Shown here: piece by piece, positions 6,123-29,062 of the stretch
How positions within the stretch are numbered: position 1 is the stretch's first letter
How the letters are laid out: the number at the start of each line of letters is the position of its first letter
DNA from: Erysipelotrichaceae bacterium
Lineage (GTDB): Bacteria > Bacillota_I > Bacilli_A > Erysipelotrichales > Erysipelotrichaceae
Length of the DNA stretch: 64,000 nucleotides
Assembly: GCA_017454765.1 (NCBI GenBank)
Contig: JAFTCJ010000017.1
Location: forward strand, 569 to 64,568
Reading direction: 5' to 3'
Translations under genes and position numbers: made by a program
Notes under the pieces: generated by a model
Told to the model about the DNA's origin: nothing
Database searches by the model: none
The model's input: only the letters and a program-made list of their open reading frames with translations

Positions 6123-6295
6123 AAAGAAACGGCAAAAACTCCGTCTCTGTTTCTTAACCTGAAAGATTCTCCCTTATGAGGATTGCTTCTTCGGTGCATG
6201 TATATTGCTCTCCAGAGTCTGTCCAAGACCGGTCCTTTTACCTGAGAGTTTGCTCCCCTTCGGTGTTTCATCGATGAAATCTCTCCCGGCCTCTT
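6123..6295 (-). promoter_or_regulatory. tandem glycine riboswitch (two aptamers) plus short expression platform in the gcvT leader
   Basis: Minus-strand aptamer 1 reads GGGAGAG...ACACCGAAGGGGAGCAA..CTCAGGTAAAAGGAC. Aptamer 2 reads CTCTGGAGAGC...GCACCGAAGAAGCAA...TTTCAGG. A weak hairpin plus U-run (AGAAAC..CGG AGTTTTTG CCGTTTCTTTTTG) lies just before the gcvT RBS. An extended -10 (TGGTAAAAT) lies about 6316-6324. Confidence 0.8.
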
Positions 6296-6373
6296 CATCC
6301 AGTTCATCTGTCTTTATTTTACCATACGCATCCTGATCCCTATCACCCGAAATTCGCTTTTTCCGCTTCTTTT

Positions 6374-19983: not shown

Positions 19984-21819
19984 TTATCCGTTCTTTTTGT
20001 CGCTCAGAATATAATTGATCTTTTCCACGATCGCCTTGTCGGCGTCGCAGTAATAGACTTTCTTATCCGATCCGTATTCCTTAAACAGATCATTGACCAT
20101 TCTCTCGCAGTCATACAGTTCCTCATTGCTGACGATCGCCGGATGCAGTTTCAGCTCGGGATCGTTTGCCCGCCTGCCGTCATATTTCTTAATGATGGCA
20201 GCGGTCTGTTCCCTGTTGGCCTGACGCCAGCCATGCACTCTTTCATAAGCCGACCAGCGGTCATGTTCGGCATCCGCCATCTTCTGCAGATTCTTTTCAT
20301 CGGAAAGCCACTTTGTGATAAACTCTTCATCACTTAAGGAATCATCATCCTTGAAAGAGAGGATATATCTCTGCTTGAAGCATAAAGCCAGTGCTTCTGC
20401 AAAAGAAGCTTCCTGATTCTGATAACGGTAGAAACCTGTTTCTTCCAGTATCTTTTCCTGATCTTCCTCATCCTGTTTGGAGAGATAAGACAGGTGAACG
20501 CGCTTGGCTGCTTCCTCCAGTTTCGGAGTGATCAGCTTGCTGTAGGTGAAGAAAGACTTCGTCTCACCGAAGAGGATGATGTCTTCCTCTTTGATGATCC
20601 TGTGCAGGTCGCTGTTTTCGATGCGGCAGAAGATCTTCGGAGATTTGAGTTCCCTGTTTCTGGCCACCAGGTCGCGGCGGATCCGTGCAGCCGTCTCATA
20701 GGCTGCCTCATCATCCTCATAAAGGACGAAGACGATGTCCGGGTCGGGAAGACTGTCGAATGCATCACTCTCTTTTCCATACGGACAGTTGAAGACTTTC
20801 AGATCATAGCGGTCTCCTTCCGGTGCCTGTCTGCGGAATTCGTCATACAGAGCAGAAGCTTTGGGACCGATCATTGAGACGATCGGACTGCTCTCGGGTC
20901 TGATCAGCAGACACAGCAGGTCTTTGACGAAACCGATCGCCGCATCGCTGTCGCAGATCACTGCTGCATGGCAATCAGCCTTGGAAGCAGCCTCGTCCAT
21001 GCATAAGAACATGCCTTCGACTGCCAGGGAATGCTTCTCGTCGATGTGACGCAGGAAGACTTCATCGGCATACTGCTTGTCCAGATTCAGGATCAGCTCT
21101 CTCTGATCATCGCCCGCAAAGACTCTGACGATGACTTTCTTGGGATCGTAGTTCTTATGCTTCCTGACCCGATTGCAGAAACAGGCGGCCGTGACCACGC
21201 TTTCGTGATCATCCTCTTCCAGCATGTAGAACTCGTAGTACTTGTTCTTTTTCAGATGGATCTGATCGATCGTCGTATTCAGACACAGGGCATTCATCTC
21301 CCTGGCTTCATTCTTGAGATATTCGTCGCATTCTTCGCAGTTGCAGAATATCAGCATACCGCCGATCTTTTCATCGACGATGCTTCTGGCGATCATCATC
21401 GATCTTTCGTTTAAAGAAGAGAAGACGTGGAAACGTTTCTTGCCGAAGAAAGAGATCGCACTTCTTAATGTTGAGGAGAAAGAGAAAAGAAACATGGAGC
21501 CGGCCAGAGGACCGATGATGTAGAGGAAATAAAGAAAAGTCCTGTAAGCCAGAAATTCATTCCGTTCCATTTCCAGCTCATAGGGAATGCTGCCGTTGAC
21601 GCCCATGGCGATACCGGAAATACCGGCACGGATGGATTCAATGACGGCGATCGGCAGATCGTCATCCAGATGATAATACGGAAAGACCAGGACCGTGATC
21701 GCCAAAGACAGCGCAGCCGATAAAGCCAGTGTCCTTGAACGGAAATCCTCATCCTTGCCGAAGACACGCCATATTCCATACAGCGTGATCACAAATGCAG
21801 CAGCCATATATTTCCACAT
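19984..21819 (-). CDS. multi-TM protein with large cytoplasmic region ending in a RyR-like domain
   Basis: 611 aa with about 4 N-terminal TM segments. The C-terminal string AEHDRWSAYERVHGWRQ...KLHPAIVSNEELYDCER matches the ExxRW...GW...HPxlVpyeeL pattern of RyR (PF02026-type) domains. Its stop is 6 nt from the lipoprotein start. Confidence 0.6.
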   Translation of the reverse strand: MWKYMAAAFVITLYGIWRVFGKDEDFRSRTLALSAALSLAITVLVFPYYHLDDDLPIAVIESIRAGISGIAMGVNGSIPYELEMERNEFLAYRTFLYFLYIIGPLAGSMFLFSFSSTLRSAISFFGKKRFHVFSSLNERSMMIARSIVDEKIGGMLIFCNCEECDEYLKNEAREMNALCLNTTIDQIHLKKNKYYEFYMLEEDDHESVVTAACFCNRVRKHKNYDPKKVIVRVFAGDDQRELILNLDKQYADEVFLRHIDEKHSLAVEGMFLCMDEAASKADCHAAVICDSDAAIGFVKDLLCLLIRPESSPIVSMIGPKASALYDEFRRQAPEGDRYDLKVFNCPYGKESDAFDSLPDPDIVFVLYEDDEAAYETAARIRRDLVARNRELKSPKIFCRIENSDLHRIIKEEDIILFGETKSFFTYSKLITPKLEEAAKRVHLSYLSKQDEEDQEKILEETGFYRYQNQEASFAEALALCFKQRYILSFKDDDSLSDEEFITKWLSDEKNLQKMADAEHDRWSAYERVHGWRQANREQTAAIIKKYDGRRANDPELKLHPAIVSNEELYDCERMVNDLFKEYGSDKKVYYCDADKAIVEKINYILSDKKNG

Positions 21820-21886
21820 GATTTTTTCTTCTCCTTCTTATCCTTTTCTATATTATACACCGTGGCTGACAACAGACAGGGTCCCG

Positions 21887-21914
21887 TTCAAAATACTCCA
21901 AAATCCGATATAAT
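21887..21914 (+). promoter_or_regulatory. candidate sigma-70-type promoter of the TIR gene
   Basis: TTCAAA, 16 nt, TATAAT, about 40 nt upstream of the AAAGGAG RBS. A divergent TATAAT for the minus-strand operon lies at about 21851-21856. Confidence 0.4.
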
Positions 21915-21954
21915 GATTTTAGAAAGAAAACGAAGATTGTCAAAGGAGTCGCTT

Positions 21955-23991
21955 ATGGCAGAAAAAGTATTCATCAGTTATTCCCATCAGGACAGTTCCT
22001 GTGCCCAGGGCATCGCCCGCTATCTGGAAAGACACGGCTGTGAAGTCTGGATCGATTCACAGGATCTTTCTGTCGGCGAAAAATGGGCCAGCAGCATCGA
22101 AACAGCCTTAAGTGAAGCGGAAGTCGTCGTCGGTCTTCTTTCCTCATCTTCCCTGCGCCGGGATGAAGTGCTTAAAGAGATCTCTTATTCTCTGAAACGC
22201 ATGGAAGAGGAAGGAACGGAAAACTTCCGTGTCTTCTTTGTCGTCATCGGCCAGATCCATCCGTCCTGGTTCAAGGATGATGAAAGAGTCGATATGATCA
22301 GAAGATATCTGGGCCAATACCAGTATGTCGAACTCAGCGCCTATGGTGAAGTGACGATCGACGCGATGAAGAAACTGCTGTCAGCCATCCGTCACAAAGG
22401 CATCGAAGAAGGAAGTCTGAATCTTTCCTTAAGCAATCAGAACGGCTTCATCAACCAGAATTCCCTGCCGGAGAAGACCTTTGACAACCTGGGCAACAAC
22501 ATCTTCTATAAAGTATTCCCGGCCGACCTGGCTCCTTCAGCCGTCTATCCCTTTGCGATGGACAACCAGTGGCTGCCTGAGGTCTTCTATGACAGAAAGA
22601 GCGATCTTTCCAAGGCTTTTGAAAAAGAAGGTTTCACCTCAGCTCAGGTCCTGGAATACCTGACCGAATTCAAATGCCGCAATTTCATCCTGTCCTTCTT
22701 CCAGTTCAAACAGGTCGTCATCAAACTGAATACGATCCTGTATGAACCCTATTTCCAGAAACTCATTCAGACGGAAGATGCAGACAGGGACGCTTTTGTC
22801 AAACTGCTGGAAAACGGCAGCATTACCCTTCTGCTCAACAACAAGCAGATGACGCCTTTCCTGCATCACAAGAGCAGCAAACCTGATCAAGGCAGGATCG
22901 ATGAAGCCTGGAACGACATCTGCGATGATACATCCGTCTACTGCATCAGGGAAAACTGGGCATCGACATCCGATCAGCACAGCATGGACTTCTTAAGGTT
23001 CTGTTCCAACCTGGCGATGGACCACAACAATAATATCCTCCTGGCCCAGGCCATGCATCTGGACGAAAGCCAGATCAATGCTTTCCTGGTCACGTTGAAG
23101 ACCATCTCCATGCAGGCCTTCTGTCAGACACACATGAACGGCACCCAGGCCCAGGACAAAGTCGATGACTACAGCCGCACCCTCTTCTATGAGAATTACA
23201 TCGTCAGAAACGGCGATGAGAATATCGAGGATGCGGTCTACAAGTGCCGCTTTGATCAAAACAAACCGTTCCATCACGAACTCAAGCGCCTGATCGATAT
23301 CTACTATAACTCCATCTTCTGCAACACCCTGCAGTGTGATGCCCTGTTACCGGATGATCTTCGTCCCGAGAACTATTACCTGCATTCCCTGTACATCTCC
23401 AACGGCGAGAAAGAGGTCAGTATCGAGGAACTGCAGTATGCCTTCTCCGAATTCTTCGCGAACTGCGAAGTCCTGGATGAGATCGAAGCGATCGGTTCCA
23501 ATCTCTATCTGGAAAACTGGGATCTGACCAGAGTCGTTGAACTCAGGGACAAGGAAGCCTGGTATGAATATGTGGAACTCCTGGAAATGATCAACCGCCG
23601 TTCCAATCTCTGGAAAGTCGATTTCAATGAAATAGAACTCTTATTGCAGAGACTTCTGAGATGTTTCGACGAGAGACCGGACAAGGCAGCCGACAGGGAT
23701 ATCGCCTGCAGTTTCCGTGTCATGGTCGGATCGAAAGTACTGGATATCGTCAAGACAAACAAAGTCTCCAAGATCAAGGAATACGGCGGATCCTATGCCG
23801 ATCCGGGCAAGATCCCTCTCAAAGTCCTCTTCTGTGTCGGAGACCTGACCAGAGAAAACAGGAAAGACATCATCTTCCTGCCGGTCACTCTTTTTGACGG
23901 AAGGATCGATACTTCCGACGGAGACGGTTTCTTCAACAAACTCAAGGAATTCATACTGAAACAGTGTGACTTCGTTCTGATCAATCAGTAA
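21955..23991 (+). CDS. TIR-domain protein (N-terminal ~140 aa) with an unassigned ~530-aa C-terminal region
   Basis: ORF 21862..23991. Preferred start is MAEKVFISYSHQDS (ATG 21955, RBS AAAGGAG). The TIR_2-like pattern is FISYSHQD...GCEVWIDSQDLSVGEKW...AEVVVGLLSSSSLRRDEVLKEI. I recognise nothing in the rest. Confidence 0.8.
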   Translation: MAEKVFISYSHQDSSCAQGIARYLERHGCEVWIDSQDLSVGEKWASSIETALSEAEVVVGLLSSSSLRRDEVLKEISYSLKRMEEEGTENFRVFFVVIGQIHPSWFKDDERVDMIRRYLGQYQYVELSAYGEVTIDAMKKLLSAIRHKGIEEGSLNLSLSNQNGFINQNSLPEKTFDNLGNNIFYKVFPADLAPSAVYPFAMDNQWLPEVFYDRKSDLSKAFEKEGFTSAQVLEYLTEFKCRNFILSFFQFKQVVIKLNTILYEPYFQKLIQTEDADRDAFVKLLENGSITLLLNNKQMTPFLHHKSSKPDQGRIDEAWNDICDDTSVYCIRENWASTSDQHSMDFLRFCSNLAMDHNNNILLAQAMHLDESQINAFLVTLKTISMQAFCQTHMNGTQAQDKVDDYSRTLFYENYIVRNGDENIEDAVYKCRFDQNKPFHHELKRLIDIYYNSIFCNTLQCDALLPDDLRPENYYLHSLYISNGEKEVSIEELQYAFSEFFANCEVLDEIEAIGSNLYLENWDLTRVVELRDKEAWYEYVELLEMINRRSNLWKVDFNEIELLLQRLLRCFDERPDKAADRDIACSFRVMVGSKVLDIVKTNKVSKIKEYGGSYADPGKIPLKVLFCVGDLTRENRKDIIFLPVTLFDGRIDTSDGDGFFNKLKEFILKQCDFVLINQ

Positions 23992-24017
23992 AGGCTGCCG
24001 AAGCAGCCTTTCTTTTA
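23991..24017 (+). terminator. rho-independent terminator after the TIR gene
   Basis: AAGGCTGC-CGAA-GCAGCCTT followed by TCTTTTAT, starting right after the stop codon. Confidence 0.75.
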
Positions 24018-24037
24018 TATTCATTGAGATAACAGAT

Positions 24038-25768
24038 TTAATCTTTATCGACCAGATCCGAAACTACTTCAACGATATCCTTTGCTCCGCTGATACCGGC
24101 GCTGTGTTCATGGGCACCTGCCTCCTTGTCGACAGCTCCCTTGATGGAATCGATGTCATCCACCAGACCGGCAACGGATGCGACTGTATCCAGACCGAGA
24201 ATCGAAGCAATATCGGAAATGATGGTGGCCGTCTCACTGACACCGATCTCTTCGCTTTCCAGCGTGGACTTGATGTCCTTTCCGGAAGTGTAGACATCGA
24301 TGACCTTGGAAACACCTGGGATGCCTAAAAAGTCAGCGACAGCTCCGATGTTGCTTAAAGATTCATCGGACTTGATATCCGGTTTCAAAATCGGCAGGAT
24401 GAACTTCATCAGGATCTCGTTTTTCTCTGACCCGTAAGGAAGATAGTTGACGATCATCTTGTCCTTAATGCGATTGTCGAGCTTTCTCTTGTGATCCTTG
24501 ATGAACTCATCAGTCGTCACGACAGCGACATCTGTTTCTGCCAGAGCTTCTTTCTTCTGTTTCAGGAGCTCTTCATATCTTTCTTCACTTAAAACATCAA
24601 TAATAACCAGATCAGGTGAATCCTCTTCCACCTTTTCTTCGATCTCACCGTTGTCACAGGTACTGATGACAAGGTGTTTCTTACTCTTCAGTACATTCAC
24701 AAGATCTTCATCCTTGCTGGCGACAAGGATCGACTTGTCTTCAATGGAAGGTTTCTCAAACTCTTTCACTTTCTTGGCCGCCTCTTTCAGCAGCTGTGCC
24801 GCCTTGCGTTTTCTCAGATACATCCACAGACCGCCTAATACAGCAGCGATACCTGCACCTCCCACCGCAATGATAGGTGTCGGATCTTTTCTTGCCAGAA
24901 CATGAGAAAGCACATGGCCGCAGTAATAGCAGGTCTTTGTTTCAAGACCCTCTTCCAGATAACTGGGTTCTTTCTCCAAAGTCCACTCCTTGGGATACTT
25001 ATGTCCGGCTGGCAGGATCTTTTCTTTCCATGATTCTCCGCAGCGCTTACATAACGCTTCTCTTTCGCCTTCTTCTTCACAGGTCGGAGCTTTGAGAATG
25101 GTGTATTCCAGATCATGACCTAAAGCAGGATAGATGTCATCGACTACCATTCCGCAGCGTTTACAGGTTCCCTTCTTGTATCCGTCCTCCGTACAGGTAG
25201 CTTCTTTTTCATCATATTCGATATCATGACCGAGAGCTTCTATGGTTTTGGTATAGCTCTTATCACATCTGGTACAGGTATATGTCCTGACACCGTCTTC
25301 CTCGCAGGTCGCTTCCTTAGTGACTTTGGATTTATAGTTATGGCCTAAGGCTGCGATGGTTTCCGTATAACTGTCTCCGCAGCGCGAACACTCAAACAGT
25401 TCTGTTCCGGTCTCGGTGCAGGTCGCTTTTTTTGTGACTTTTGATGTATAGCTGTGACCGAGTGGAGGAGCATAAACGGTGCCTCCGTTATAAGGAGAGT
25501 TGTCCTGCATCGTGTGCGCGGCAGTATTATAACAGTATACTTCCGCATAGCTTCCTTCCGTACAGGTCGGAACGTTACTGGAAATAAAACTATACTGTAA
25601 CGGCTGGCCGCACCATGGACAGTTTCCGAAATCATAAGCATTTGCTCTGTGCACATGAACATGAAGAGGTTTTTCATAGTCTTCGTGCTCTTCATCATGA
25701 AATACCGCAAACGATATGCTGCTGAACACCAAAAGGAATATAACAATCTTAATTAATTTCTTTTTCAT
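24038..25768 (-). CDS. single-pass membrane receptor-like protein, paralog A
   Basis: 576 aa. In order it has: a signal/anchor, the His-rich stretch FHDEEHEDYEKPLHVHVH, about five C-x9-C-x2-C-x12-H repeats, a TM (IIAVGGAGIAAVLGGLWMYL then RKRK), a receiver-like cytoplasmic domain and an acidic conserved tail. Confidence 0.75.
   Translation of the reverse strand: MKKKLIKIVIFLLVFSSISFAVFHDEEHEDYEKPLHVHVHRANAYDFGNCPWCGQPLQYSFISSNVPTCTEGSYAEVYCYNTAAHTMQDNSPYNGGTVYAPPLGHSYTSKVTKKATCTETGTELFECSRCGDSYTETIAALGHNYKSKVTKEATCEEDGVRTYTCTRCDKSYTKTIEALGHDIEYDEKEATCTEDGYKKGTCKRCGMVVDDIYPALGHDLEYTILKAPTCEEEGEREALCKRCGESWKEKILPAGHKYPKEWTLEKEPSYLEEGLETKTCYYCGHVLSHVLARKDPTPIIAVGGAGIAAVLGGLWMYLRKRKAAQLLKEAAKKVKEFEKPSIEDKSILVASKDEDLVNVLKSKKHLVISTCDNGEIEEKVEEDSPDLVIIDVLSEERYEELLKQKKEALAETDVAVVTTDEFIKDHKRKLDNRIKDKMIVNYLPYGSEKNEILMKFILPILKPDIKSDESLSNIGAVADFLGIPGVSKVIDVYTSGKDIKSTLESEEIGVSETATIISDIASILGLDTVASVAGLVDDIDSIKGAVDKEAGAHEHSAGISGAKDIVEVVSDLVDKD
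24900..25470 (-). repeat. in-frame ~37-codon repeat array (ATCxExG-x5-CxRC-x9-ALGH) in paralog A, about 5 copies
   Basis: For example ATCEEDGVRTYTCTRCDKSYTKTIEALGHDIEYDEKE followed by ATCTEDGYKKGTCKRCGMVVDDIYPALGHDLEY. Confidence 0.8.
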
Positions 25769-25831
25769 ATGACATCGCTCCAGATAATATTATTTTCTCA
25801 CAAACAAGAAACCAATTGGGATGTTTTGAGT

Positions 25832-25862
25832 CAATAAAGGAAAGGCTGCTTCTGCAGCCTTT
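25832..25862 (-). terminator. hairpin/weak terminator between the two paralogs
   Basis: Minus strand: AAAGGCTGC-AGAA-GCAGCCTTT followed by CCTTTATT. Confidence 0.5.
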
Positions 25863-25891
25863 GGTATTTGTGTAATGCTGATTTGTTTTTA

Positions 25892-27685
25892 TCAGTCTTT
25901 GTCGATCAGATCCGACACTACATCAACGATATCCTTTGCGCCGCTGATGCCGCCTTTATGCTCATAGGCACCGGCTTCTTTATCTGTTGCAGCTTTGATG
26001 GAATCGATATCATCCACAAGACCAGCCACAGATGCAACGGTATCTAATCCAAGAATTGATGCAATATCTCCGATAATTGTAGCTGCTTCACTTGTACCGA
26101 TTTCTTCACTCTCCAGAGTAGCCTTGATATCTCTGGCGGATACATAGACATTGATGACTTCGGAGATGCCCGGAATGCCTAAGAAGTCTGCCGCTGCTCC
26201 GATATTGCTTAAAGATTCATCGGACTTGAGATCCGGTTTCAGGATCGGCAGGAAAAACTTCAACATGACCGAGATCTCATCCGGTTTATAAGGAAGATAA
26301 TTGATGATCGTCTTATCCTTGACACGGTTGTTGAGTTTTCTCTTATGATCCTTGATGAACTCGTCTGTCGTCATGACGGCGATGTTCTGCTCTGCCAAAG
26401 CTTCCTTCTTCTGTTGCAGAAGCTCGTCATATCTTTCTTCACTTAAGACATCCATGATGATCAGATCAGGTGAATTTTCTTCTGCCGTTTCCTCAATCTC
26501 ATCATCTTCACAGGTACTTACTTCAAGGAAGGACTTGTTCTTGAGTATAGCCAGCAGATCTTCATCCTTGCTGGATACAAGAACGGATTTATCTTCAAAA
26601 GAAGGTTTCTCAAATCCTCTGAGTTTCTTTGCCGCTTCCTTGACCAGCTGTGCCGCTTTACGTTTCTTCAGATACATCCAAAGACCACCGCCTACGACCG
26701 CAGCGGTTCCGCCTGTTGTTACAACGATGGGAGCCGGGCTCTTCTTTGCAAGAATATGGGAAAGAACATTTCCGCAATAGTAACACGTCTTCGTTTCCAG
26801 ACCCTCCTCTGTATAAGAAGGCTCTTTCACAAGCGTCCACTCTTTCGGATACTTATGGCCTGCGGGAAGGATCTTTTCGTTCCATGTCTCGCCGCAACGC
26901 TTACAGGCAGCCTGACGTTCCCCTTCTTCTTCACAGGTCGCGGCTTTCAGTATGACATATTCAAGATCATGACCTAAAGCAGGATAGATGTCGTTCACTT
27001 CTTTGTTACATCTCTTGCAGGTTCCTTTCTTGTAACCATCTTCCGTACAGGTAGCTTCTTTCTCTTCGTATTCGATATCATGACCCAGGGCTTCGATTAT
27101 CTTGGTATACTCTTTTTTACATCTGGAGCAGGTATAAGTTCTTTCGCCTTCTTCTTCACATGTCGCTTCTTTGGTGACCTTGCTTTTATAGTTATGGCCT
27201 AAAGCTTCTACGGTTTCCGTATATGAATTACCGCAGCGGGTACATTCATAGTAATCCTCTCCGGATTGAGTACAAGTGGCTTCTTTAATGACCGTCTTGT
27301 TATAACTGTGACCTAAAGCAGGGATAGTCGTCTCACGCGGTTCTTCACAGCGGCTGCATCTTTCATGCCTTATTCCGTTTTTTGTACAGGTTGCAGGCTC
27401 TTCAGTTAACGTAAAATAGTCATGACCTAACGGGGGAGTTGTACCTGAGAACGAGTAGCCGCAACTGTCGCATACAGCAGTGAATGCCCCTGATTCGATA
27501 CAGCCGGAGTTATATCCTGTTGTAACTACCATTGTTCCTGTAGTACAACTTGGACACGTACCATATACATCTCCTGCCTCGTATGCATGCACATGGTGAT
27601 GAAGCTCTTCATCATGAAATGCAGCATAAGAAAAACTTCCGAACAGCACGATGAATATCAATAATTTGATAAAAACCTTTTTCAT
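25892..27685 (-). CDS. single-pass membrane receptor-like protein, paralog B (one extra repeat)
   Basis: 597 aa with the same architecture as paralog A. The N-terminus reads FHDEELHHHVH, there are about six Cys/His repeats, and the C-terminal 300 aa are nearly collinear with A. Confidence 0.75.
   Translation of the reverse strand: MKKVFIKLLIFIVLFGSFSYAAFHDEELHHHVHAYEAGDVYGTCPSCTTGTMVVTTGYNSGCIESGAFTAVCDSCGYSFSGTTPPLGHDYFTLTEEPATCTKNGIRHERCSRCEEPRETTIPALGHSYNKTVIKEATCTQSGEDYYECTRCGNSYTETVEALGHNYKSKVTKEATCEEEGERTYTCSRCKKEYTKIIEALGHDIEYEEKEATCTEDGYKKGTCKRCNKEVNDIYPALGHDLEYVILKAATCEEEGERQAACKRCGETWNEKILPAGHKYPKEWTLVKEPSYTEEGLETKTCYYCGNVLSHILAKKSPAPIVVTTGGTAAVVGGGLWMYLKKRKAAQLVKEAAKKLRGFEKPSFEDKSVLVSSKDEDLLAILKNKSFLEVSTCEDDEIEETAEENSPDLIIMDVLSEERYDELLQQKKEALAEQNIAVMTTDEFIKDHKRKLNNRVKDKTIINYLPYKPDEISVMLKFFLPILKPDLKSDESLSNIGAAADFLGIPGISEVINVYVSARDIKATLESEEIGTSEAATIIGDIASILGLDTVASVAGLVDDIDSIKAATDKEAGAYEHKGGISGAKDIVDVVSDLIDKD
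26758..27433 (-). repeat. in-frame ~37-codon Cys/His repeat array in paralog B, about 6 copies
   Basis: For example ATCTQSGEDYYECTRCGNSYTETVEALGHNYKSKVTKE followed by ATCEEEGERTYTCSRCKKEYTKIIEALGHDIEYEEKE. Confidence 0.8.
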
Positions 27686-27800
27686 GTGAAGTACCTCTCT
27701 ATTTTATTTTCTCATAAATAAGATGATTTCATCTGCCTTTTGCAGCTTATCTTACAAAAACAGCGATTCTGTAAAGTATGTCTTTCGTCAATTATGTTTT

Positions 27801-27829
27801 TTGCTTATTAACACGATGGCCTATATAAT
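27801..27829 (+). promoter_or_regulatory. candidate promoter TTGCTT-17 nt-TATAAT placing the transcription start at the ATG of the PnuC-like gene (leaderless)
   Basis: The -10 ends 6 nt before ATG 27836. There is no Shine-Dalgarno sequence upstream of that ATG. Confidence 0.45.
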
Positions 27830-27835
27830 ATTGAT

Positions 27836-29062
27836 ATGCCTGAAAAGACAACGAAATACATTGAGAAAAACAGAACTGTAAAAATGATTGAGATCATTTC
27901 TCTGATCCTTTTAATCTTTGTTTCTGCTTTCTCTGTGTTTTCAGGCTACCGTAAGATCCATTCCGATCCGGGTGAACCGGATTATATCGGAACCGCCGAA
28001 ATGACCAGGGATGATTCACTGGAAGACTATGATGAGGATTCCACTGTCTGCGATGTCGTCTATGTGAACGGAGATGACAGACTGATCGTCTCTTATCCGT
28101 ATGAAGAATACATCGATCTGGATCAGGAAAAGATCACGGCTTATCAGTATCAGAGCGAAGACGGAACAGCTCTTTTCTTTGACCGGAAGGATCCGGATAT
28201 CAGTCAGATCAGAAAGACTTATCAGACGATCAAAGCCGAAGAGACGATGCCTTTATTCAATCTGGGCAACGGCTTGCTGATCGTGGCATTATCTCTGTTC
28301 ATCGTTCTGTTCTGGTCAGGCTTCTTCACAACATATGAAAAGGTCTGGTTTTTGTCCATCATGGCGCTGGCGACTGTTGTCTCTGTCCTCTTTCCAGAAG
28401 AAAGCGCCAACGGCGTCAACGGCATCGTCATTATGCTGCTGTATCTGCTGGATACCTTCCTCAATATCCTGTGTGAACTGCTGATCTCCAAACAGTCCCG
28501 TTACAATTTCCTGGTATCAGTTGCGGTCGAGATCTGCGAGATCGCAATCTGTCTGGTTCTGATGTACCGCTTTGCGACGATGGCCACGACTCTCTTCTTC
28601 TGGCTGCCGATCGATATCCTCAGTTTCATCAACTGGAGCAGGCATAAAGATGATGTGGAGGAAGAACTGACGGCTGTCAGAAGACTCAAAGGCTATCAGG
28701 AAGTACTGATCATCCTGGCGATCATCGTCTGGACGCTTGTTGTGGGTTATTTCTTAAGCGGGCTCAATATCAGGACCGACTTCTTCGCCGGAAACAAAGA
28801 CCTGGAGACCATCGTCAGCTACATGGATGCCTGTGCTTCGGCAGTCGGCGTGGCCAACGGTCTATTCATCTTCTTCCGCTTAAGAGAACAGTGGATCGCC
28901 TGGTACATCTGCGCCCTGCTGGAAGCCATCATCAACATCATCACCGGGCAGTATGTACTGCTGGTATTGAAACTGGGTTATTTCACCAATACCACCTACG
29001 GTTACATCAGGTGGAGCCGCTATATCAGGACACACAAGGAAGCGGAAAAATCATTATTGTAG
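27836..29062 (+). CDS. PnuC-like nicotinamide riboside transporter family protein with ~140-aa N-terminal extension
   Basis: The C-terminal 260 aa show a PnuC-like pattern (WLPIDILSFINWSRH ... LREQWIAWYICALLEAIINI ... YGYIRW). The N-terminus adds one TM plus an acidic extracytoplasmic segment. Confidence 0.65.
   Translation: MPEKTTKYIEKNRTVKMIEIISLILLIFVSAFSVFSGYRKIHSDPGEPDYIGTAEMTRDDSLEDYDEDSTVCDVVYVNGDDRLIVSYPYEEYIDLDQEKITAYQYQSEDGTALFFDRKDPDISQIRKTYQTIKAEETMPLFNLGNGLLIVALSLFIVLFWSGFFTTYEKVWFLSIMALATVVSVLFPEESANGVNGIVIMLLYLLDTFLNILCELLISKQSRYNFLVSVAVEICEIAICLVLMYRFATMATTLFFWLPIDILSFINWSRHKDDVEEELTAVRRLKGYQEVLIILAIIVWTLVVGYFLSGLNIRTDFFAGNKDLETIVSYMDACASAVGVANGLFIFFRLREQWIAWYICALLEAIINIITGQYVLLVLKLGYFTNTTYGYIRWSRYIRTHKEAEKSLL

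What the first reader, a model, noticed from the sequence alone, without database searches (positions are those of the whole stretch)
24038..27685. Tandem pair of receptor-like membrane proteins built from extracellular C-x9-C-x2-C-x12-H repeats
Both proteins (576 and 597 aa) share one layout, in this order:
- a signal or anchor sequence;
- a His-rich stretch (FHDEEHEDYEKPLHVHVH in A, FHDEELHHHVH in B);
- 5-6 copies of a ~37-aa unit, for example ATCEEDGVRTYTCTRCDKSYTKTIEALGHDIEYDEKE;
- one TM followed by RKRK, which by the positive-inside rule places the repeats outside;
- a ~270-aa cytoplasmic part.

Each repeat has exactly three Cys and one invariant His at fixed spacing. An odd Cys count plus a His looks more like a CCCH metal (Zn) knuckle than a disulfide module. 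That is unusual for an extracytoplasmic domain.

Together with the His-rich N-terminus, this suggests a metal-binding or metal-sensing ectodomain. I do not know a described family with this repeat.
Basis: partly seen in the sequence, partly recalled or inferred. Interest (0 to 1): 0.72.

Follow-up and report, generated by a model that had tools for sequence, protein, structure and literature searches.

The report
Zinc-stapled rod surface proteins, tandem pair
Two neighbouring genes encode membrane proteins whose outer part is probably a stiff rod of small beta-sheets clipped end to end by zinc; this module is very common in gut Firmicutes surface proteins but unnamed, and here it is joined to a conserved intracellular domain of unknown function.

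Summary
A (24038-25768, minus strand) has 4 exact C-x9-C-x2-C-x12-H units and B (25892-27685, minus strand) has 6. Both also have end caps, a cleavable signal peptide, a His/acid-rich mature N-terminus, one TM followed by RKRK/KKRK, and about 258 cytoplasmic residues.

The Cys3His ligand set is probably right, but the register is not. Structure prediction and statistics on 5,607 units indicate that each site joins two units: C1 and His of unit i with the CxxC of unit i+1. The result is a rigid rod.

The module has no Pfam or NCBIfam model and no solved structure. It is, however, homologous to the predicted zinc-binding domains ZBD1/2 (also called CTD2/4) of the Thomasclavelia ramosa IgA protease, described in 2025. 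It recurs in tens of thousands of secreted proteins, so it is a general stalk module rather than a metal sensor.

What is specific to A and B:
- The family is confined to ruminant-gut Erysipelotrichaceae.
- The distal tip is hypervariable and His-rich, while the membrane-proximal units are conserved.
- The cytoplasmic part has a receiver-like fold without a conserved phospho-acceptor pocket, followed by a highly conserved 120-residue tail that matches no family.

Signalling is plausible but unproven, and metal sensing is not supported.

The parts
25892..27685 (-). Gene B, 597 aa: signal peptide, His-rich tail, zinc-stapled rod, TM, cytoplasmic module
   Evidence: ORF. An identical protein (P0001) is found on 13 metagenome contigs. 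AF2 full-length model.
24038..25768 (-). Gene A, 576 aa: paralogue of B with the same layout and one unit fewer
   Evidence: ORF. 66% identical to B. Near-identical to P0003.
27623..27685 (-). B signal peptide (aa 1-21, MKKVFIKLLIFIVLFGSFSYA, SYA|A cleavage-type end)
   Evidence: Hydropathy scan. Sequence and coordinates.
27569..27622 (-). B mature N-terminal His/acid-rich tail (AFHDEELHHHVHAYEAGD), at the membrane-distal tip
   Evidence: Across the family this segment is 12.3% His against 2.2% overall, and 61 of 71 members have HxH. pLDDT is below 50 for aa 26-32.
27422..27568 (-). B N-cap: CPSC knuckle (C44/C47) plus unit 1 (C62, C72/C75, H88). The predicted zinc-ribbon-like C4 site is C44, C47, C72, C75.
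   Evidence: The strand order E40-43, E51-58, E66-72 and E78-83 puts both knuckles at the same end of the hairpin. This is an inference from DSSP, not from coordinates.
26855..27421 (-). B canonical units 2-6 (aa 89-277). Each has three strands, and each staple is C1(i), H(i), CxxC(i+1).
   Evidence: Motif positions. Full-length model pLDDT about 90. Three-unit fragment: pLDDT 97.1, pTM 0.71.
26744..26854 (-). B C-cap (aa 278-314): a knuckle-only unit (C301/C304). C1 is replaced by Ser and there is no closing His.
   Evidence: W283, C301 and C304 invariant. Knuckle-only units are 148 of 780 array-last units against 2 of 3,701 internal units.
26669..26731 (-). B transmembrane helix (aa 319-339, PIVVTTGGTAAVVGGGLWMYL), followed by KKRK (26657-26668)
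   Evidence: Topology follows the positive-inside rule, which is established knowledge.
26282..26593 (-). B cytoplasmic receiver-like (CheY-fold) domain, aa 365-468, without a conserved phospho-acceptor pocket
   Evidence: Alternating beta/alpha elements, pLDDT about 90. Foldseek prob 1.0 to the receiver-containing entries 8xat, 1s8n and 2wb4. Pfam Response_reg E = 0.11, seen for A only. PDB profile hits E = 0.013-0.3. The Asp position varies.
25895..26251 (-). B C-terminal conserved cytoplasmic domain (aa 479-597, LPILKPDLKSDESLSNIG...VVSDLIDKD), predicted helical, matching no family
   Evidence: Most conserved region of the family: mean commonest-residue frequency 0.77. No Pfam hit in 66 members. 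Homologues found only in Erysipelotrichaceae.
25706..25768 (-). A signal peptide (aa 1-21)
25634..25705 (-). A His/acid-rich tail (VFHDEEHEDYEKPLHVHVHRANAY)
25454..25633 (-). A N-cap: CPWC knuckle (C50/C53) plus degenerate unit 1 (C69, C79, H85, H105). The predicted cap site is C50, C53, C79, H85.
   Evidence: by analogy with the B model. Inference.
25001..25453 (-). A canonical units 2-5 (aa 106-256)
24890..25000 (-). A C-cap, a knuckle-only unit (C280/C283)
24815..24877 (-). A transmembrane helix (aa 298-318), followed by RKRK (24803-24814)
24041..24802 (-). A cytoplasmic module: receiver-like domain (aa 344-447) plus conserved C-terminal domain (aa 458-576)
25841..25862 (-). Terminator-like hairpin after B (AAAGGCTGCAGAAGCAGCCTTT + T-run). 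It implies that A and B are separate transcription units.
23990..24011 (.). Near-identical hairpin (AAAGGCTGCCGAAGCAGCCTTT) between the 3' ends of A and the convergent TIR gene

Best explanation
A and B are paralogous type I (N-out, C-in) membrane proteins of a family found in ruminant-gut Erysipelotrichaceae.

Ectodomain. After signal-peptide cleavage, the ectodomain is a rigid rod built from small three-stranded beta-sheets stacked end to end. Neighbouring sheets are clipped together by a tetrahedral Cys3His site, most likely structural Zn2+. Each site uses C1 and the closing His of unit i together with the CxxC knuckle of unit i+1.
- At the N-terminal end, a zinc-ribbon-like cap supplies a CPxCG knuckle.
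- At the C-terminal end, a knuckle-only unit closes the array.
- This predicts 7 sites in B and 6 in A, and it uses every ectodomain Cys.
- At roughly 35 A per sheet, the rod would be about 25-29 nm long, which is about the thickness of a Gram-positive wall.
- The membrane-proximal units are conserved. The distal units and the short His/Asp/Glu-rich tip are hypervariable.

Cytoplasmic part. Behind the single TM lie a receiver-like domain without a conserved phospho-acceptor pocket and a very conserved helical domain of about 120 residues. These most likely bind an intracellular partner.

Proposed role. The proteins would couple something at the cell surface to the cytoplasm, acting as a receptor or anchor with no enzymatic output.

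Status of each step:
- Shown: the repeat, the topology signals, the predicted fold, homology to the IgA protease ZBDs, the inter-unit ligand pattern (statistically), and the conservation pattern.
- Inferred: zinc as the metal, the rod length, and any signalling role.
For: Structure prediction
- The full-length B model has pLDDT about 90 over aa 40-312, with three strands per unit.
- A three-unit fragment gives pLDDT 97.1 and pTM 0.71, which implies fixed orientations between units.
- C1 sits in the beta1-beta2 loop and C2 at the far end of beta2. Ligands of one unit therefore cannot all meet.

Ligand statistics on 5,607 units from 269 proteins
- C1 and His of the same unit are lost together: odds ratio 51, p = 2e-150.
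- The CxxC of those units is kept.
- Knuckle-only units make up 148 of 780 array-last units, 2 of 3,701 internal units and 1 of 780 array-first units.
- A His lies 18-27 residues upstream of the knuckle in 84% of array-first units, against 29% of control windows, often as C-x-H or H-x-H.
- All 22 (B) and 18 (A) ectodomain Cys fit into 7 and 6 four-ligand sites with none left over.

Link to the IgA protease
- The unit profile hits IgA protease chain 9qa6_A at E = 8e-4, and the two-unit profile at E = 1e-5, inside ZBD1 and ZBD2.
- Those domains were independently predicted to be three-stranded sheets linked by Cys/His zinc sites at subdomain interfaces.
- SAXS of one such domain fitted an extended rod, and no disulfides were seen (PMC12237041, PMC12415215).

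Extracellular context
- 120 of 144 N-terminally complete top-scoring repeat proteins have a signal-like N-terminus.
- Partner domains include Big_2, CAP, dockerin and Flg_new_2.

Family features
- 39 loci were found in species-representative genomes. All are MAGs, nearly all named as from ruminant gut, and most are labelled Erysipelotrichaceae or Solobacterium.
- Conservation (mean commonest-residue frequency): C-terminal domain 0.77, proximal units 0.70-0.72, distal units 0.32-0.38.
- A against its near-identical orthologue P0002: 28% identity over aa 41-120, 80-100% elsewhere.
- The cytoplasmic domain has a receiver fold.
- P0127 carries the same cytoplasmic module behind a different ectodomain.
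Against: - No metal has been measured, and no coordinates were available to me. The inter-unit geometry rests on DSSP strand order, statistics and published predictions, not on measured distances.
- AlphaFold2 does not model metals.
- No output enzyme, DNA-binding domain or conserved signalling partner gene was found, so the receptor idea is architectural inference only.
- Gene neighbours differ among paralogues.
- The C-terminal domain is predicted with low confidence: pLDDT 34-73.
- Strong conservation of the membrane-proximal units is more than a passive spacer needs, and it is unexplained.
- The count of 57,764 clusters may include eukaryotic C2H2 arrays, because the unit profile cross-hits them.
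Confidence: 0.6

Rival explanations
1. Extracellular metal (zinc) sensor or scavenger. The His/Asp/Glu-rich tip captures metal, or the staples themselves load and unload with ambient Zn, so that the rod stiffens or collapses and signals through the TM to the cytoplasmic module.
For: - The mature N-terminus is 12.3% His and 19% acidic across the family. 61 of 71 members have HxH and 43 of 71 have at least 4 His.
- In A and B this tail is not needed for any structural site.
- The PNAS authors speculated that their homologous domains might be regulated by environmental zinc.
- One paralogue locus (L007) lies near DtxR-like and HMA genes.
Against: - The repeats recur in thousands of unrelated surface proteins whose partner domains are enzymes or binding modules. 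That fits a generic structural role.
- Four-ligand Cys3His sites usually bind Zn too tightly to report physiological changes (general knowledge).
- No metal-homeostasis gene is consistently nearby.
- The His tail is among the less conserved segments (0.44), and its motifs vary.
Confidence: 0.15
2. A surface-exposed variable protein (adhesin, wall-associated scaffold, or target of phage or host antibody). The rod is only a stalk, the variable tip is the binding or antigenic end, and the cytoplasmic part merely anchors or localises the protein, with no signalling.
For: - The distal tip is hypervariable between near-identical orthologues: 28% against 80-100% identity.
- The number of distal units varies (gap fraction 0.39).
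- The same module serves as a stalk in giant surface proteins and in the IgA protease.
- The family is multi-copy within genomes.
Against: - A 258-residue cytoplasmic region, whose last 120 residues are the most conserved part of the protein, is far more than an anchor needs.
- There is no recognisable adhesive or catalytic head; the tip is only about 20-60 residues.
- The cytoplasmic module also occurs behind a different ectodomain (P0127), as expected for a modular receptor.
Confidence: 0.17
3. A disulfide-bonded Cys-rich module with no metal.
For: It is an extracellular Cys-rich repeat. The IgA protease construct was polydisperse without reducing agent, which shows that its Cys residues can oxidise.
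Against: - There are three Cys per unit plus an invariant His. In the array as a whole, every site has 3 Cys + 1 His or 4 Cys, which are classic zinc sets.
- The hosts are obligate anaerobes of the reducing rumen.
- The IgA protease papers saw no disulfides, and reducing agent restored monodispersity.
Confidence: 0.03
4. Ordinary cytoplasmic zinc ribbons or C2H2-like nucleic-acid-binding fingers, with the topology reversed.
For: The unit profile cross-hits C2H2 arrays (Aart E = 2.9e-13, PRDM9 E = 2.4e-8). C-x2-C-x12-H is the classical C2H2 spacing.
Against: - The second His is absent and no helix is predicted; strand beta3 takes its place.
- The N-terminal signal peptide and the KKRK after the TM place the repeats outside.
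- Family-wide partner domains are extracellular.
Confidence: 0.02

Closest known systems
ZBD1/ZBD2 (= CTD2/CTD4) of the Thomasclavelia ramosa IgA protease (IgAse; UniProt Q9AES2; PMC12237041, PMC12415215)
   Same: - Homologous in sequence. The profile matches inside both domains, with the pattern H-x-[LFW]-x8-ATCT-x-x-G-x5-C-x2-C.
- Three-stranded up-and-down sheets are placed end to end.
- Cys/His sites are predicted at the interfaces between sheets.
- Extracellular, in a Gram-positive bacterium of the same class (Erysipelotrichia).
- Proposed to be a rigid 'periscope' stalk.
- No solved structure and no Pfam model.
   Different: - In the IgA protease the module is short (2-3 sheets) and irregular. 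Most sites are His2Cys2, and C1 is often replaced by Ala.
- There it is a spacer between a protease and a sortase anchor.
- In A and B it is a regular Cys3His array of 7-8 sheets that makes up the whole ectodomain of a type I membrane protein with a large conserved cytoplasmic module.
Zinc ribbon (for example the TFIIS C-terminal domain or the NrdR N-terminus)
   Same: - A three-stranded antiparallel sheet with a CxxC(G) knuckle.
- The N-cap of B (C44xxC47 ... C72xxC75) has the classical two-knuckle arrangement.
- One unit weakly matches the NrdR ribbon (prob 0.94 over 42 columns).
- The IgA protease authors noted a TFIIS resemblance.
   Different: - Canonical units have only one knuckle. The other two ligands (C1, His) come from the preceding unit, so the metal joins domains rather than closing one.
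- They form extracellular arrays, not single intracellular nucleic-acid or protein-binding modules.
Classical C2H2 zinc finger (PF00096)
   Same: The local sequence [YF]-x-C-x2-C-x3-[YF]-x5-L-x-H and a TGEKP-like lead-in produce significant profile cross-hits.
   Different: There is no second His, no helix, a 37-38-residue period instead of 28, an extra upstream Cys, and an extracellular location. The resemblance is most likely convergent, and it is a risk for mis-annotation.
Periscope proteins and stalk repeats of Gram-positive surface proteins (SasG/Aap G5-E, Rib, SHIRT; PMC9704523)
   Same: Elongated, mostly single-layer beta-sheet repeats without a large hydrophobic core. They project a distal part away from the wall, and the repeat number varies among relatives.
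   Different: Stability here depends on built-in Cys/His metal staples. In Aap, zinc instead mediates dimerisation through surface His/acidic sites. A and B are held by a TM helix with a cytoplasmic domain, not by LPXTG.
Response-regulator receiver domain (PF00072) and pseudo-receivers
   Same: The predicted (beta/alpha)5 CheY-like fold, and a beta3 motif PDLxIxD that resembles the receiver phospho-acceptor strand.
   Different: The acidic pair after beta1 and the conserved Thr/Ser and Lys are absent. The Asp is present in only 16 of 26 representatives. The Pfam score is far below threshold. The domain is fused to a bitopic surface protein rather than to a two-component output.

Membership tests
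IgAse-type zinc-linked beta-sheet rod (ZBD / CTD2-CTD4 'periscope' fold) | Tandem three-stranded antiparallel sheets with up-and-down connectivity, arranged end to end | tested here: met
   DSSP shows three strands per unit at pLDDT about 90. The three-unit fragment gives 97.1 with pTM 0.71.
IgAse-type zinc-linked beta-sheet rod (ZBD / CTD2-CTD4 'periscope' fold) | Cys/His four-ligand sites located at the interfaces between successive sheets | tested here: met
   The evidence is indirect but strong:
- C1 and C2 lie at opposite ends of beta2.
- C1 and His are lost together while the CxxC is kept, and this is confined to array-last units.
- A His or C-x-H precedes array-first units.
- Ligand bookkeeping is complete for A and B.
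Distances in the model could not be measured, because coordinates are not exposed.
IgAse-type zinc-linked beta-sheet rod (ZBD / CTD2-CTD4 'periscope' fold) | Sequence homology to the IgA protease ZBD segments | tested here: met
   Profile A2 hits 9qa6_A at E = 8e-4 and profile A3 at E = 1e-5. The aligned stretches are 845-882, 922-971 and 1094-1140.
IgAse-type zinc-linked beta-sheet rod (ZBD / CTD2-CTD4 'periscope' fold) | Zinc actually bound | not testable with these tools
   This needs ICP-MS, a PAR assay, anomalous scattering or EXAFS. It has not been shown experimentally for the IgA protease domains either.
Classical C2H2 zinc finger | C-x2-4-C-x12-H-x3-5-H, with both His on an alpha-helix (beta-beta-alpha fold) | tested here: not met
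   There is no second His 3-5 residues after the first. No helix is predicted anywhere in aa 40-312.
Zinc ribbon | Two CxxC knuckles on one three-stranded sheet, binding one Zn | tested here: inconclusive
   The motif is met only by the N-cap of B (C44xxC47 / C72xxC75). Canonical units have a single knuckle. Foldseek gives one weak ribbon match (NrdR). Pfam Zn_ribbon families match only below threshold.
Response-regulator receiver (PF00072) | (beta/alpha)5 CheY-like fold | tested here: met
   Alternating beta/alpha elements over aa 366-465 at pLDDT about 90. Foldseek prob 1.0 to 8xat, 1s8n and 2wb4.
Response-regulator receiver (PF00072) | Conserved phospho-acceptor pocket (acidic pair after beta1, Asp at the end of beta3, Thr/Ser after beta4, Lys after beta5) and a Pfam score above threshold | tested here: not met
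   - Pfam gives E = 0.11 and 13.1 bits against a cut-off of 30.2.
- Response_reg is not among the families listed for the 66 members scanned.
- The beta3 position is Asp in 16 of 26, Glu in 5, Ser in 3 and Gly in 1.
- Read by eye from the same alignment, the positions after beta1, beta4 and beta5 are not conserved.
Pneumococcal histidine-triad (Pht) zinc-binding surface proteins | Repeated HxxHxH triads | tested here: not met
   The tails carry HxH, HxHxH or HHH runs of variable form and occur once per protein. No Pfam hit.
Known anti-phage defence components (PADLOC) | A match to a defence-system protein model | tested here: not met
   B has no hit, and A has only MkoA at E = 0.008 (12.4 bits). 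Only the neighbouring TIR protein matches, and only through TIR models.

The most novel reading that the evidence does not exclude
The proteins are mechanical zinc gauges. The 6-7 inter-sheet staples and the His-rich tip load with Zn only when extracellular Zn is sufficient. The wall-spanning rod would then switch between rigid and collapsed states, and the change would pass through the single TM to the receiver-like and helical module. This would be a new class of metal receptor built from a structural repeat. More broadly, anaerobic Firmicutes would be using zinc staples as a general substitute for disulfides in extracellular proteins, which would tie surface-protein integrity to zinc supply in the gut.
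Probability: 0.1. Interest if true: 0.85.

Novelty: new variant of a known kind. Interest (0 to 1): 0.55.

Why it matters
- **Scale.** The repeat is one of the larger unannotated extracellular modules in gut and rumen Firmicutes. Up to 57,764 clusters at 50% identity match it, in proteins of up to 7,583 residues carrying up to 88 units. It has no Pfam or NCBIfam model and no solved structure.
- **Register.** The analysis gives a testable register for its metal sites, as staples between units. It also explains the array end caps and predicts metal stoichiometry.
- **Biology.** If confirmed, this would show how strict anaerobes stiffen surface proteins without disulfides. It would also make surface architecture dependent on zinc, which hosts actively withhold.
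- **This family.** A and B add a new architecture, in which the rod is the whole ectodomain of a bitopic protein with a conserved, lineage-specific cytoplasmic module. The family is therefore a candidate new receptor or anchor family in Erysipelotrichaceae.
- **Annotation.** The profile cross-hits with C2H2 zinc fingers warn against automatic mis-annotation.

Tried and rejected
Searches that gave nothing useful:
- **Pfam and NCBIfam on A and B.** No hit to the repeat. The only hits were below threshold: SRP54_N, Response_reg and Gram_pos_anchor.
- **Pfam on 66 family members and on 8 giant repeat proteins.** These gave only scattered sub-threshold zinc-finger or ribbon hits.
- **Foldseek with the full-length model.** The rod produced meaningless matches to propeller and Ig folds (TM below 0.1). 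Only the receiver matches were usable.
- **Foldseek with the three-unit model against the PDB.** There were 0 hits at E <= 1e-3.
- **Homology searches with the cytoplasmic part and with a C-terminal profile.** These returned only fragments from the same clade, with no distant relatives or names.
- **PADLOC on A, B and the neighbours.** Nothing matched except TIR models for the TIR protein.
- **The first literature search** (cysteine-rich repeat / Erysipelotrichaceae / zinc) returned only animal-nutrition papers.
- **Rfam over the whole window.** It found only a glycine riboswitch far from the locus.

Ideas considered and rejected:
- **An electron-transfer wire.** Metal centres about 35 A apart are too far for electron hopping.
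- **A functional link to NAD or nucleotide metabolism.** The neighbours PnuC, the TIR protein and a 5'-nucleotidase-like enzyme suggested this. However, the TIR gene is convergent, PnuC is divergent, and different paralogues have different neighbours. Conserved synteny within one clade explains this equally well.
- **Sites within a single unit.** This would leave two orphan CxxC knuckles at opposite ends of the rod, and it does not explain the end-cap statistics.

Full report
**1. What is in the sequence**

Two ORFs lie head to tail on the minus strand: A (24038..25768, 576 aa) and B (25892..27685, 597 aa). They are 66% identical over their full length.

- Each begins with a Sec-type signal (MKK..., a hydrophobic core, then SFA or SYA).
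- A His/acid-rich stretch follows, then the Cys-rich region.
- Next comes a Gly-rich TM: A 298-318, B 319-339.
- RKRK (A) or KKRK (B) follows directly, and then about 258 cytoplasmic residues.

The exact motif C-x9-C-x2-C-x12-H occurs 4 times in A and 6 times in B. Composition predicts 6-8e-4 hits per protein. All 10 occurrences in a six-frame translation of the window lie in these two genes.

Extra Cys elements sit at both ends of each array:
- A CPxCG knuckle near the N-terminus (A C50/C53; B C44/C47).
- A final unit that keeps only its CxxC (A C280/C283; B C301/C304), with Ser in place of C1 and no closing His.
- In A, unit 1 is degenerate (C69, C79, H85, H105).

A terminator-like hairpin with nearly the same sequence follows each gene, at 25841-25862 and 23990-24011. 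The two genes therefore look like separate transcription units that arose by duplication.

**2. The fold and the register of the metal sites**

AlphaFold2 on an 86-sequence family alignment models aa 40-312 of B at pLDDT about 90. The region is all-beta, with three strands per unit. A three-unit fragment (aa 86-205) gives pLDDT 97.1 and pTM 0.71, which for an elongated object implies fixed orientations between units.

Within a unit, the order of elements is:
- strand beta1, which starts right after the previous Gly-His;
- a loop carrying C1 (the A-T-C-T-E-D-G motif);
- strand beta2, which ends at C2;
- the CxxCG knuckle;
- strand beta3;
- the P-A-L-G-H motif.

C1 and C2 therefore sit at opposite ends of a seven-residue strand and cannot bind the same ion. 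C1(i) and H(i) lie at the top of unit i, next to the knuckle at the bottom of unit i+1.

I could not read coordinates, so I tested this register statistically. I used 5,607 units from 269 proteins: the hits and the top hits.
- C1 and His of the same unit are lost together (odds ratio 51, p = 2e-150), while that unit's CxxC is retained.
- Such knuckle-only units make up 148 of 780 array-last units. Only 2 of 3,701 internal units and 1 of 780 array-first units are of this kind.
- Array-first units have a His 18-27 residues before their knuckle in 84% of cases, against 29% in control windows. It often appears as C-x-H or H-x-H, which would supply two ligands.

Under this register every ectodomain Cys of A (18) and B (22) falls into a four-ligand site:
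- B has a C4 cap (C44, C47, C72, C75) plus six Cys3His staples, giving 7 sites.
- A has a Cys3His cap (C50, C53, C79, H85) plus five staples, giving 6 sites.

**3. Relation to what is known**

No Pfam or NCBIfam model matches the repeat, whether in A and B, in 66 family members, or in 8 giant repeat proteins. Foldseek of the three-unit model finds nothing in the PDB at E <= 1e-3. The only hint is one unit against the NrdR zinc ribbon.

A unit profile searched against PDB sequences hits eukaryotic C2H2 arrays and the IgA protease of Thomasclavelia ramosa (9qa6_A) at E = 8e-4. The two-unit profile improves the IgA protease hit to E = 1e-5. The aligned stretches include HNLTLVAAKAATCTTAGNSAYYTCDGCDK.

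Two 2025 papers describe exactly these regions.
- PMC12237041 calls them ZBD1 and ZBD2. [quoted passage not shown] - PMC12415215 calls them CTD2 and CTD4, "an uncharacterized periscope domain fold". The zinc pockets "link the sheets", and SAXS is consistent with a fully extended rod.
- Neither paper reports an atomic structure of these domains. Their descriptions rest on AlphaFold models and SAXS.

The repeat in A and B is thus a regular Cys3His version of a fold that has been noticed recently. That fold is still only predicted and has no database name.

The C2H2 resemblance covers the C-x2-C-x12-H spacing and a TGEKPY-like lead-in. It is not membership, because the second His and the helix are both absent.

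**4. How widespread the repeat is**

The unit profile matches 57,764 clusters at 50% identity with E <= 1e-3. Of these, 32,430 have E <= 1e-10 and 9,921 have E <= 1e-30. The matching proteins reach 7,583 residues and carry up to 88 units. The low-scoring end may include C2H2 arrays, so these counts are upper bounds. The 148 newly returned top hits in this set were checked, and they are regular arrays of this unit.

Of 144 top hits with a complete N-terminus, 120 have a signal-like N-terminus. Partner domains include Big_2, CAP, dockerin and Flg_new_2. Two virome-contig proteins annotated as SLH and LRR carry the same fold. This is a general extracellular stalk module, which argues against a dedicated sensing role for the repeats.

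**5. What is specific to A and B**

Full-length relatives with the same layout number more than 100 clusters. Those that carry a source name are nearly all labelled Erysipelotrichaceae.

A scan of species-representative genomes found 39 loci. All are MAGs, and nearly all are named as coming from ruminant gut. Most are labelled Erysipelotrichaceae or Solobacterium, and a few carry other labels (Oscillospiraceae, Faecalibacterium, Bacillota).

Genomes carry several paralogues in different settings:
- About 13 loci lie near a conserved convergent TIR-domain gene and a ~600-aa gene, as in this window. One of them (L009) also has the tandem pair.
- About 13 loci lie directly downstream of a 5'-nucleotidase-like gene (Metallophos + 5_nucleotid_C) that has no signal peptide. 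In L007 its stop codon overlaps the start codon (TAATG).
- The remaining loci have neither neighbour.

Conservation along the protein is uneven (values are the mean frequency of the commonest residue):

| Region | Conservation |
|---|---|
| Cytoplasmic C-terminal domain | 0.77 |
| Membrane-proximal units | 0.70-0.72 |
| C-cap | 0.65 |
| His tail | 0.44 |
| Distal units | 0.32-0.38 |

The number of distal units also varies. A and its near-identical orthologue P0002 share only 28% identity over aa 41-120 but 80-100% elsewhere. The distal tip is therefore hypervariable.

The mature N-terminus is 12.3% His, against 2.2% overall, and 19% acidic. HxH occurs in 61 of 71 members. In A and B this tail is not needed for any structural site.

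**6. The cytoplasmic part**

Residues 366-465 of B are modelled confidently as alternating beta/alpha elements. They match receiver domains by fold: 8xat, 1s8n and 2wb4, each at prob 1.0.

Sequence similarity to receiver domains is marginal:
- Pfam gives E = 0.11 (for A).
- The PDB profile search gives E = 0.013-0.3.
- The would-be phospho-acceptor is Asp in only 16 of 26 representatives.
- By eye, the other pocket positions in that alignment are not conserved.

This is a receiver-like fold without a conserved phospho-acceptor pocket, which makes a pseudo-receiver the likely reading.

The last 120 residues are the most conserved part of the family. They are predicted helical with low confidence, match no Pfam family, and were found only in this clade. 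A partial protein, P0127, joins the same cytoplasmic module to a different ectodomain, as expected for a modular transmembrane protein.

**7. Interpretation**

The best-supported reading has two parts.
- The ectodomain is a rigid, metal-stapled rod. At roughly 35 A per sheet (110 A for three sheets in PMC12237041), it would be about 25-29 nm long, about the thickness of a Gram-positive wall. It would carry a variable His-rich tip to the surface.
- The conserved cytoplasmic module binds an unknown partner.

Zinc is the likely metal, with a structural role. Four-ligand Cys/His staples would do the job of disulfides in a strongly reducing habitat.

A receptor function is plausible from the architecture but unproven. 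Metal sensing is possible only for the tip, or as a speculative zinc-dependent rigidity switch.

**8. Verdict**

- Novelty: a new variant of a recently noticed kind, in a new architecture.
- The wider point is probably more valuable than the two genes themselves. A very abundant zinc-stapled stalk repeat still lacks a database model and a solved structure.

Noticed in passing
window 21862-23991 (+) and 19984-21819 (-): A 709-aa protein has an N-terminal TIR domain (TIR_2, E = 1e-20) and about 560 further residues that match no Pfam family. It is paired divergently with a 611-aa protein that matches no Pfam family. The pair recurs next to receptor paralogues in about 13 loci. The TIR protein is 70-75% identical across species in which the receptor is only about 45-63% identical, which is unusually conserved for a defence-type TIR protein. 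PADLOC matches only its TIR part.
   Followed up: partly
L007 2734-4206; L008 6527-7990; also L021, L022, L026, L030, L031, L033, L034, L036, L037, L039, L044: A 5'-nucleotidase-like enzyme (Metallophos + 5_nucleotid_C) with no signal peptide lies immediately upstream of one paralogue subgroup. The stop codon overlaps the start codon (TAATG) in L007, and a 10-nt gap with a GAGGAAGAG ribosome-binding site separates them in L008. This suggests an operon. Its function is unknown.
   Followed up: partly
window 27836-29062 (+): A PnuC-like nicotinamide riboside transporter carries an extra N-terminal extension of about 200 residues. It is divergent from gene B and is followed by efp. Together with the TIR protein and the nucleotidase this hints at an NAD or nucleotide theme, but conserved synteny explains it equally well.
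   Followed up: no
window 23990-24011 and 25841-25862: Nearly identical terminator-like hairpins (AAAGGCTGC-N4-GCAGCCTTT) follow gene A and gene B, so the duplication copied the terminator as well.
   Followed up: no
window 24001-28000: GC content drops to 0.43-0.45 across A and B, against 0.47-0.53 in the rest of the window (about 0.49 next to the locus). This could reflect the Lys/Glu/Thr-rich composition or a foreign origin.
   Followed up: no
window 6220-6298 (-): Glycine riboswitch aptamer (RF00504, 58.9 bits). It is unrelated to the finding.
   Followed up: no
P0044, P0068, P0124 (homologues); 130 of 5,607 units overall: Some units have lost C3. In the three homologues read by eye the knuckle reads C-x-R-G-D, which creates an RGD tripeptide and perhaps makes Asp a substitute ligand. 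The significance is unknown.
   Followed up: no
unit profile A2/A3 against PDB sequences: The bacterial repeat profile hits designed and natural C2H2 zinc-finger arrays more strongly than its true homologue (Aart E = 2.9e-13, PRDM9 E = 2.4e-8). This comes from a shared T-x-x-G-x-x-x-Y-x-C-x-x-C-G-x-x-[FY] pattern. It creates a risk of mis-annotation and of inflated family counts.
   Followed up: partly
P0127 (partial protein, Erysipelotrichaceae MAG): The same cytoplasmic module (receiver-like domain plus conserved C-terminal domain) follows a different, Cys-free ectodomain with a Gly/Asn/Ser/Gln-rich linker. The cytoplasmic module is therefore a portable unit.
   Followed up: no
BFVD entries A0A8S5QLF9 and A0A8S5SUG5: Two gut-virome contig proteins, annotated as an SLH-domain fragment and an LRR protein, contain the same repeat fold (prob 1.0; 39% and 20% identity). 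They could be prophage-borne surface proteins or bacterial contamination of viral bins.
   Followed up: no
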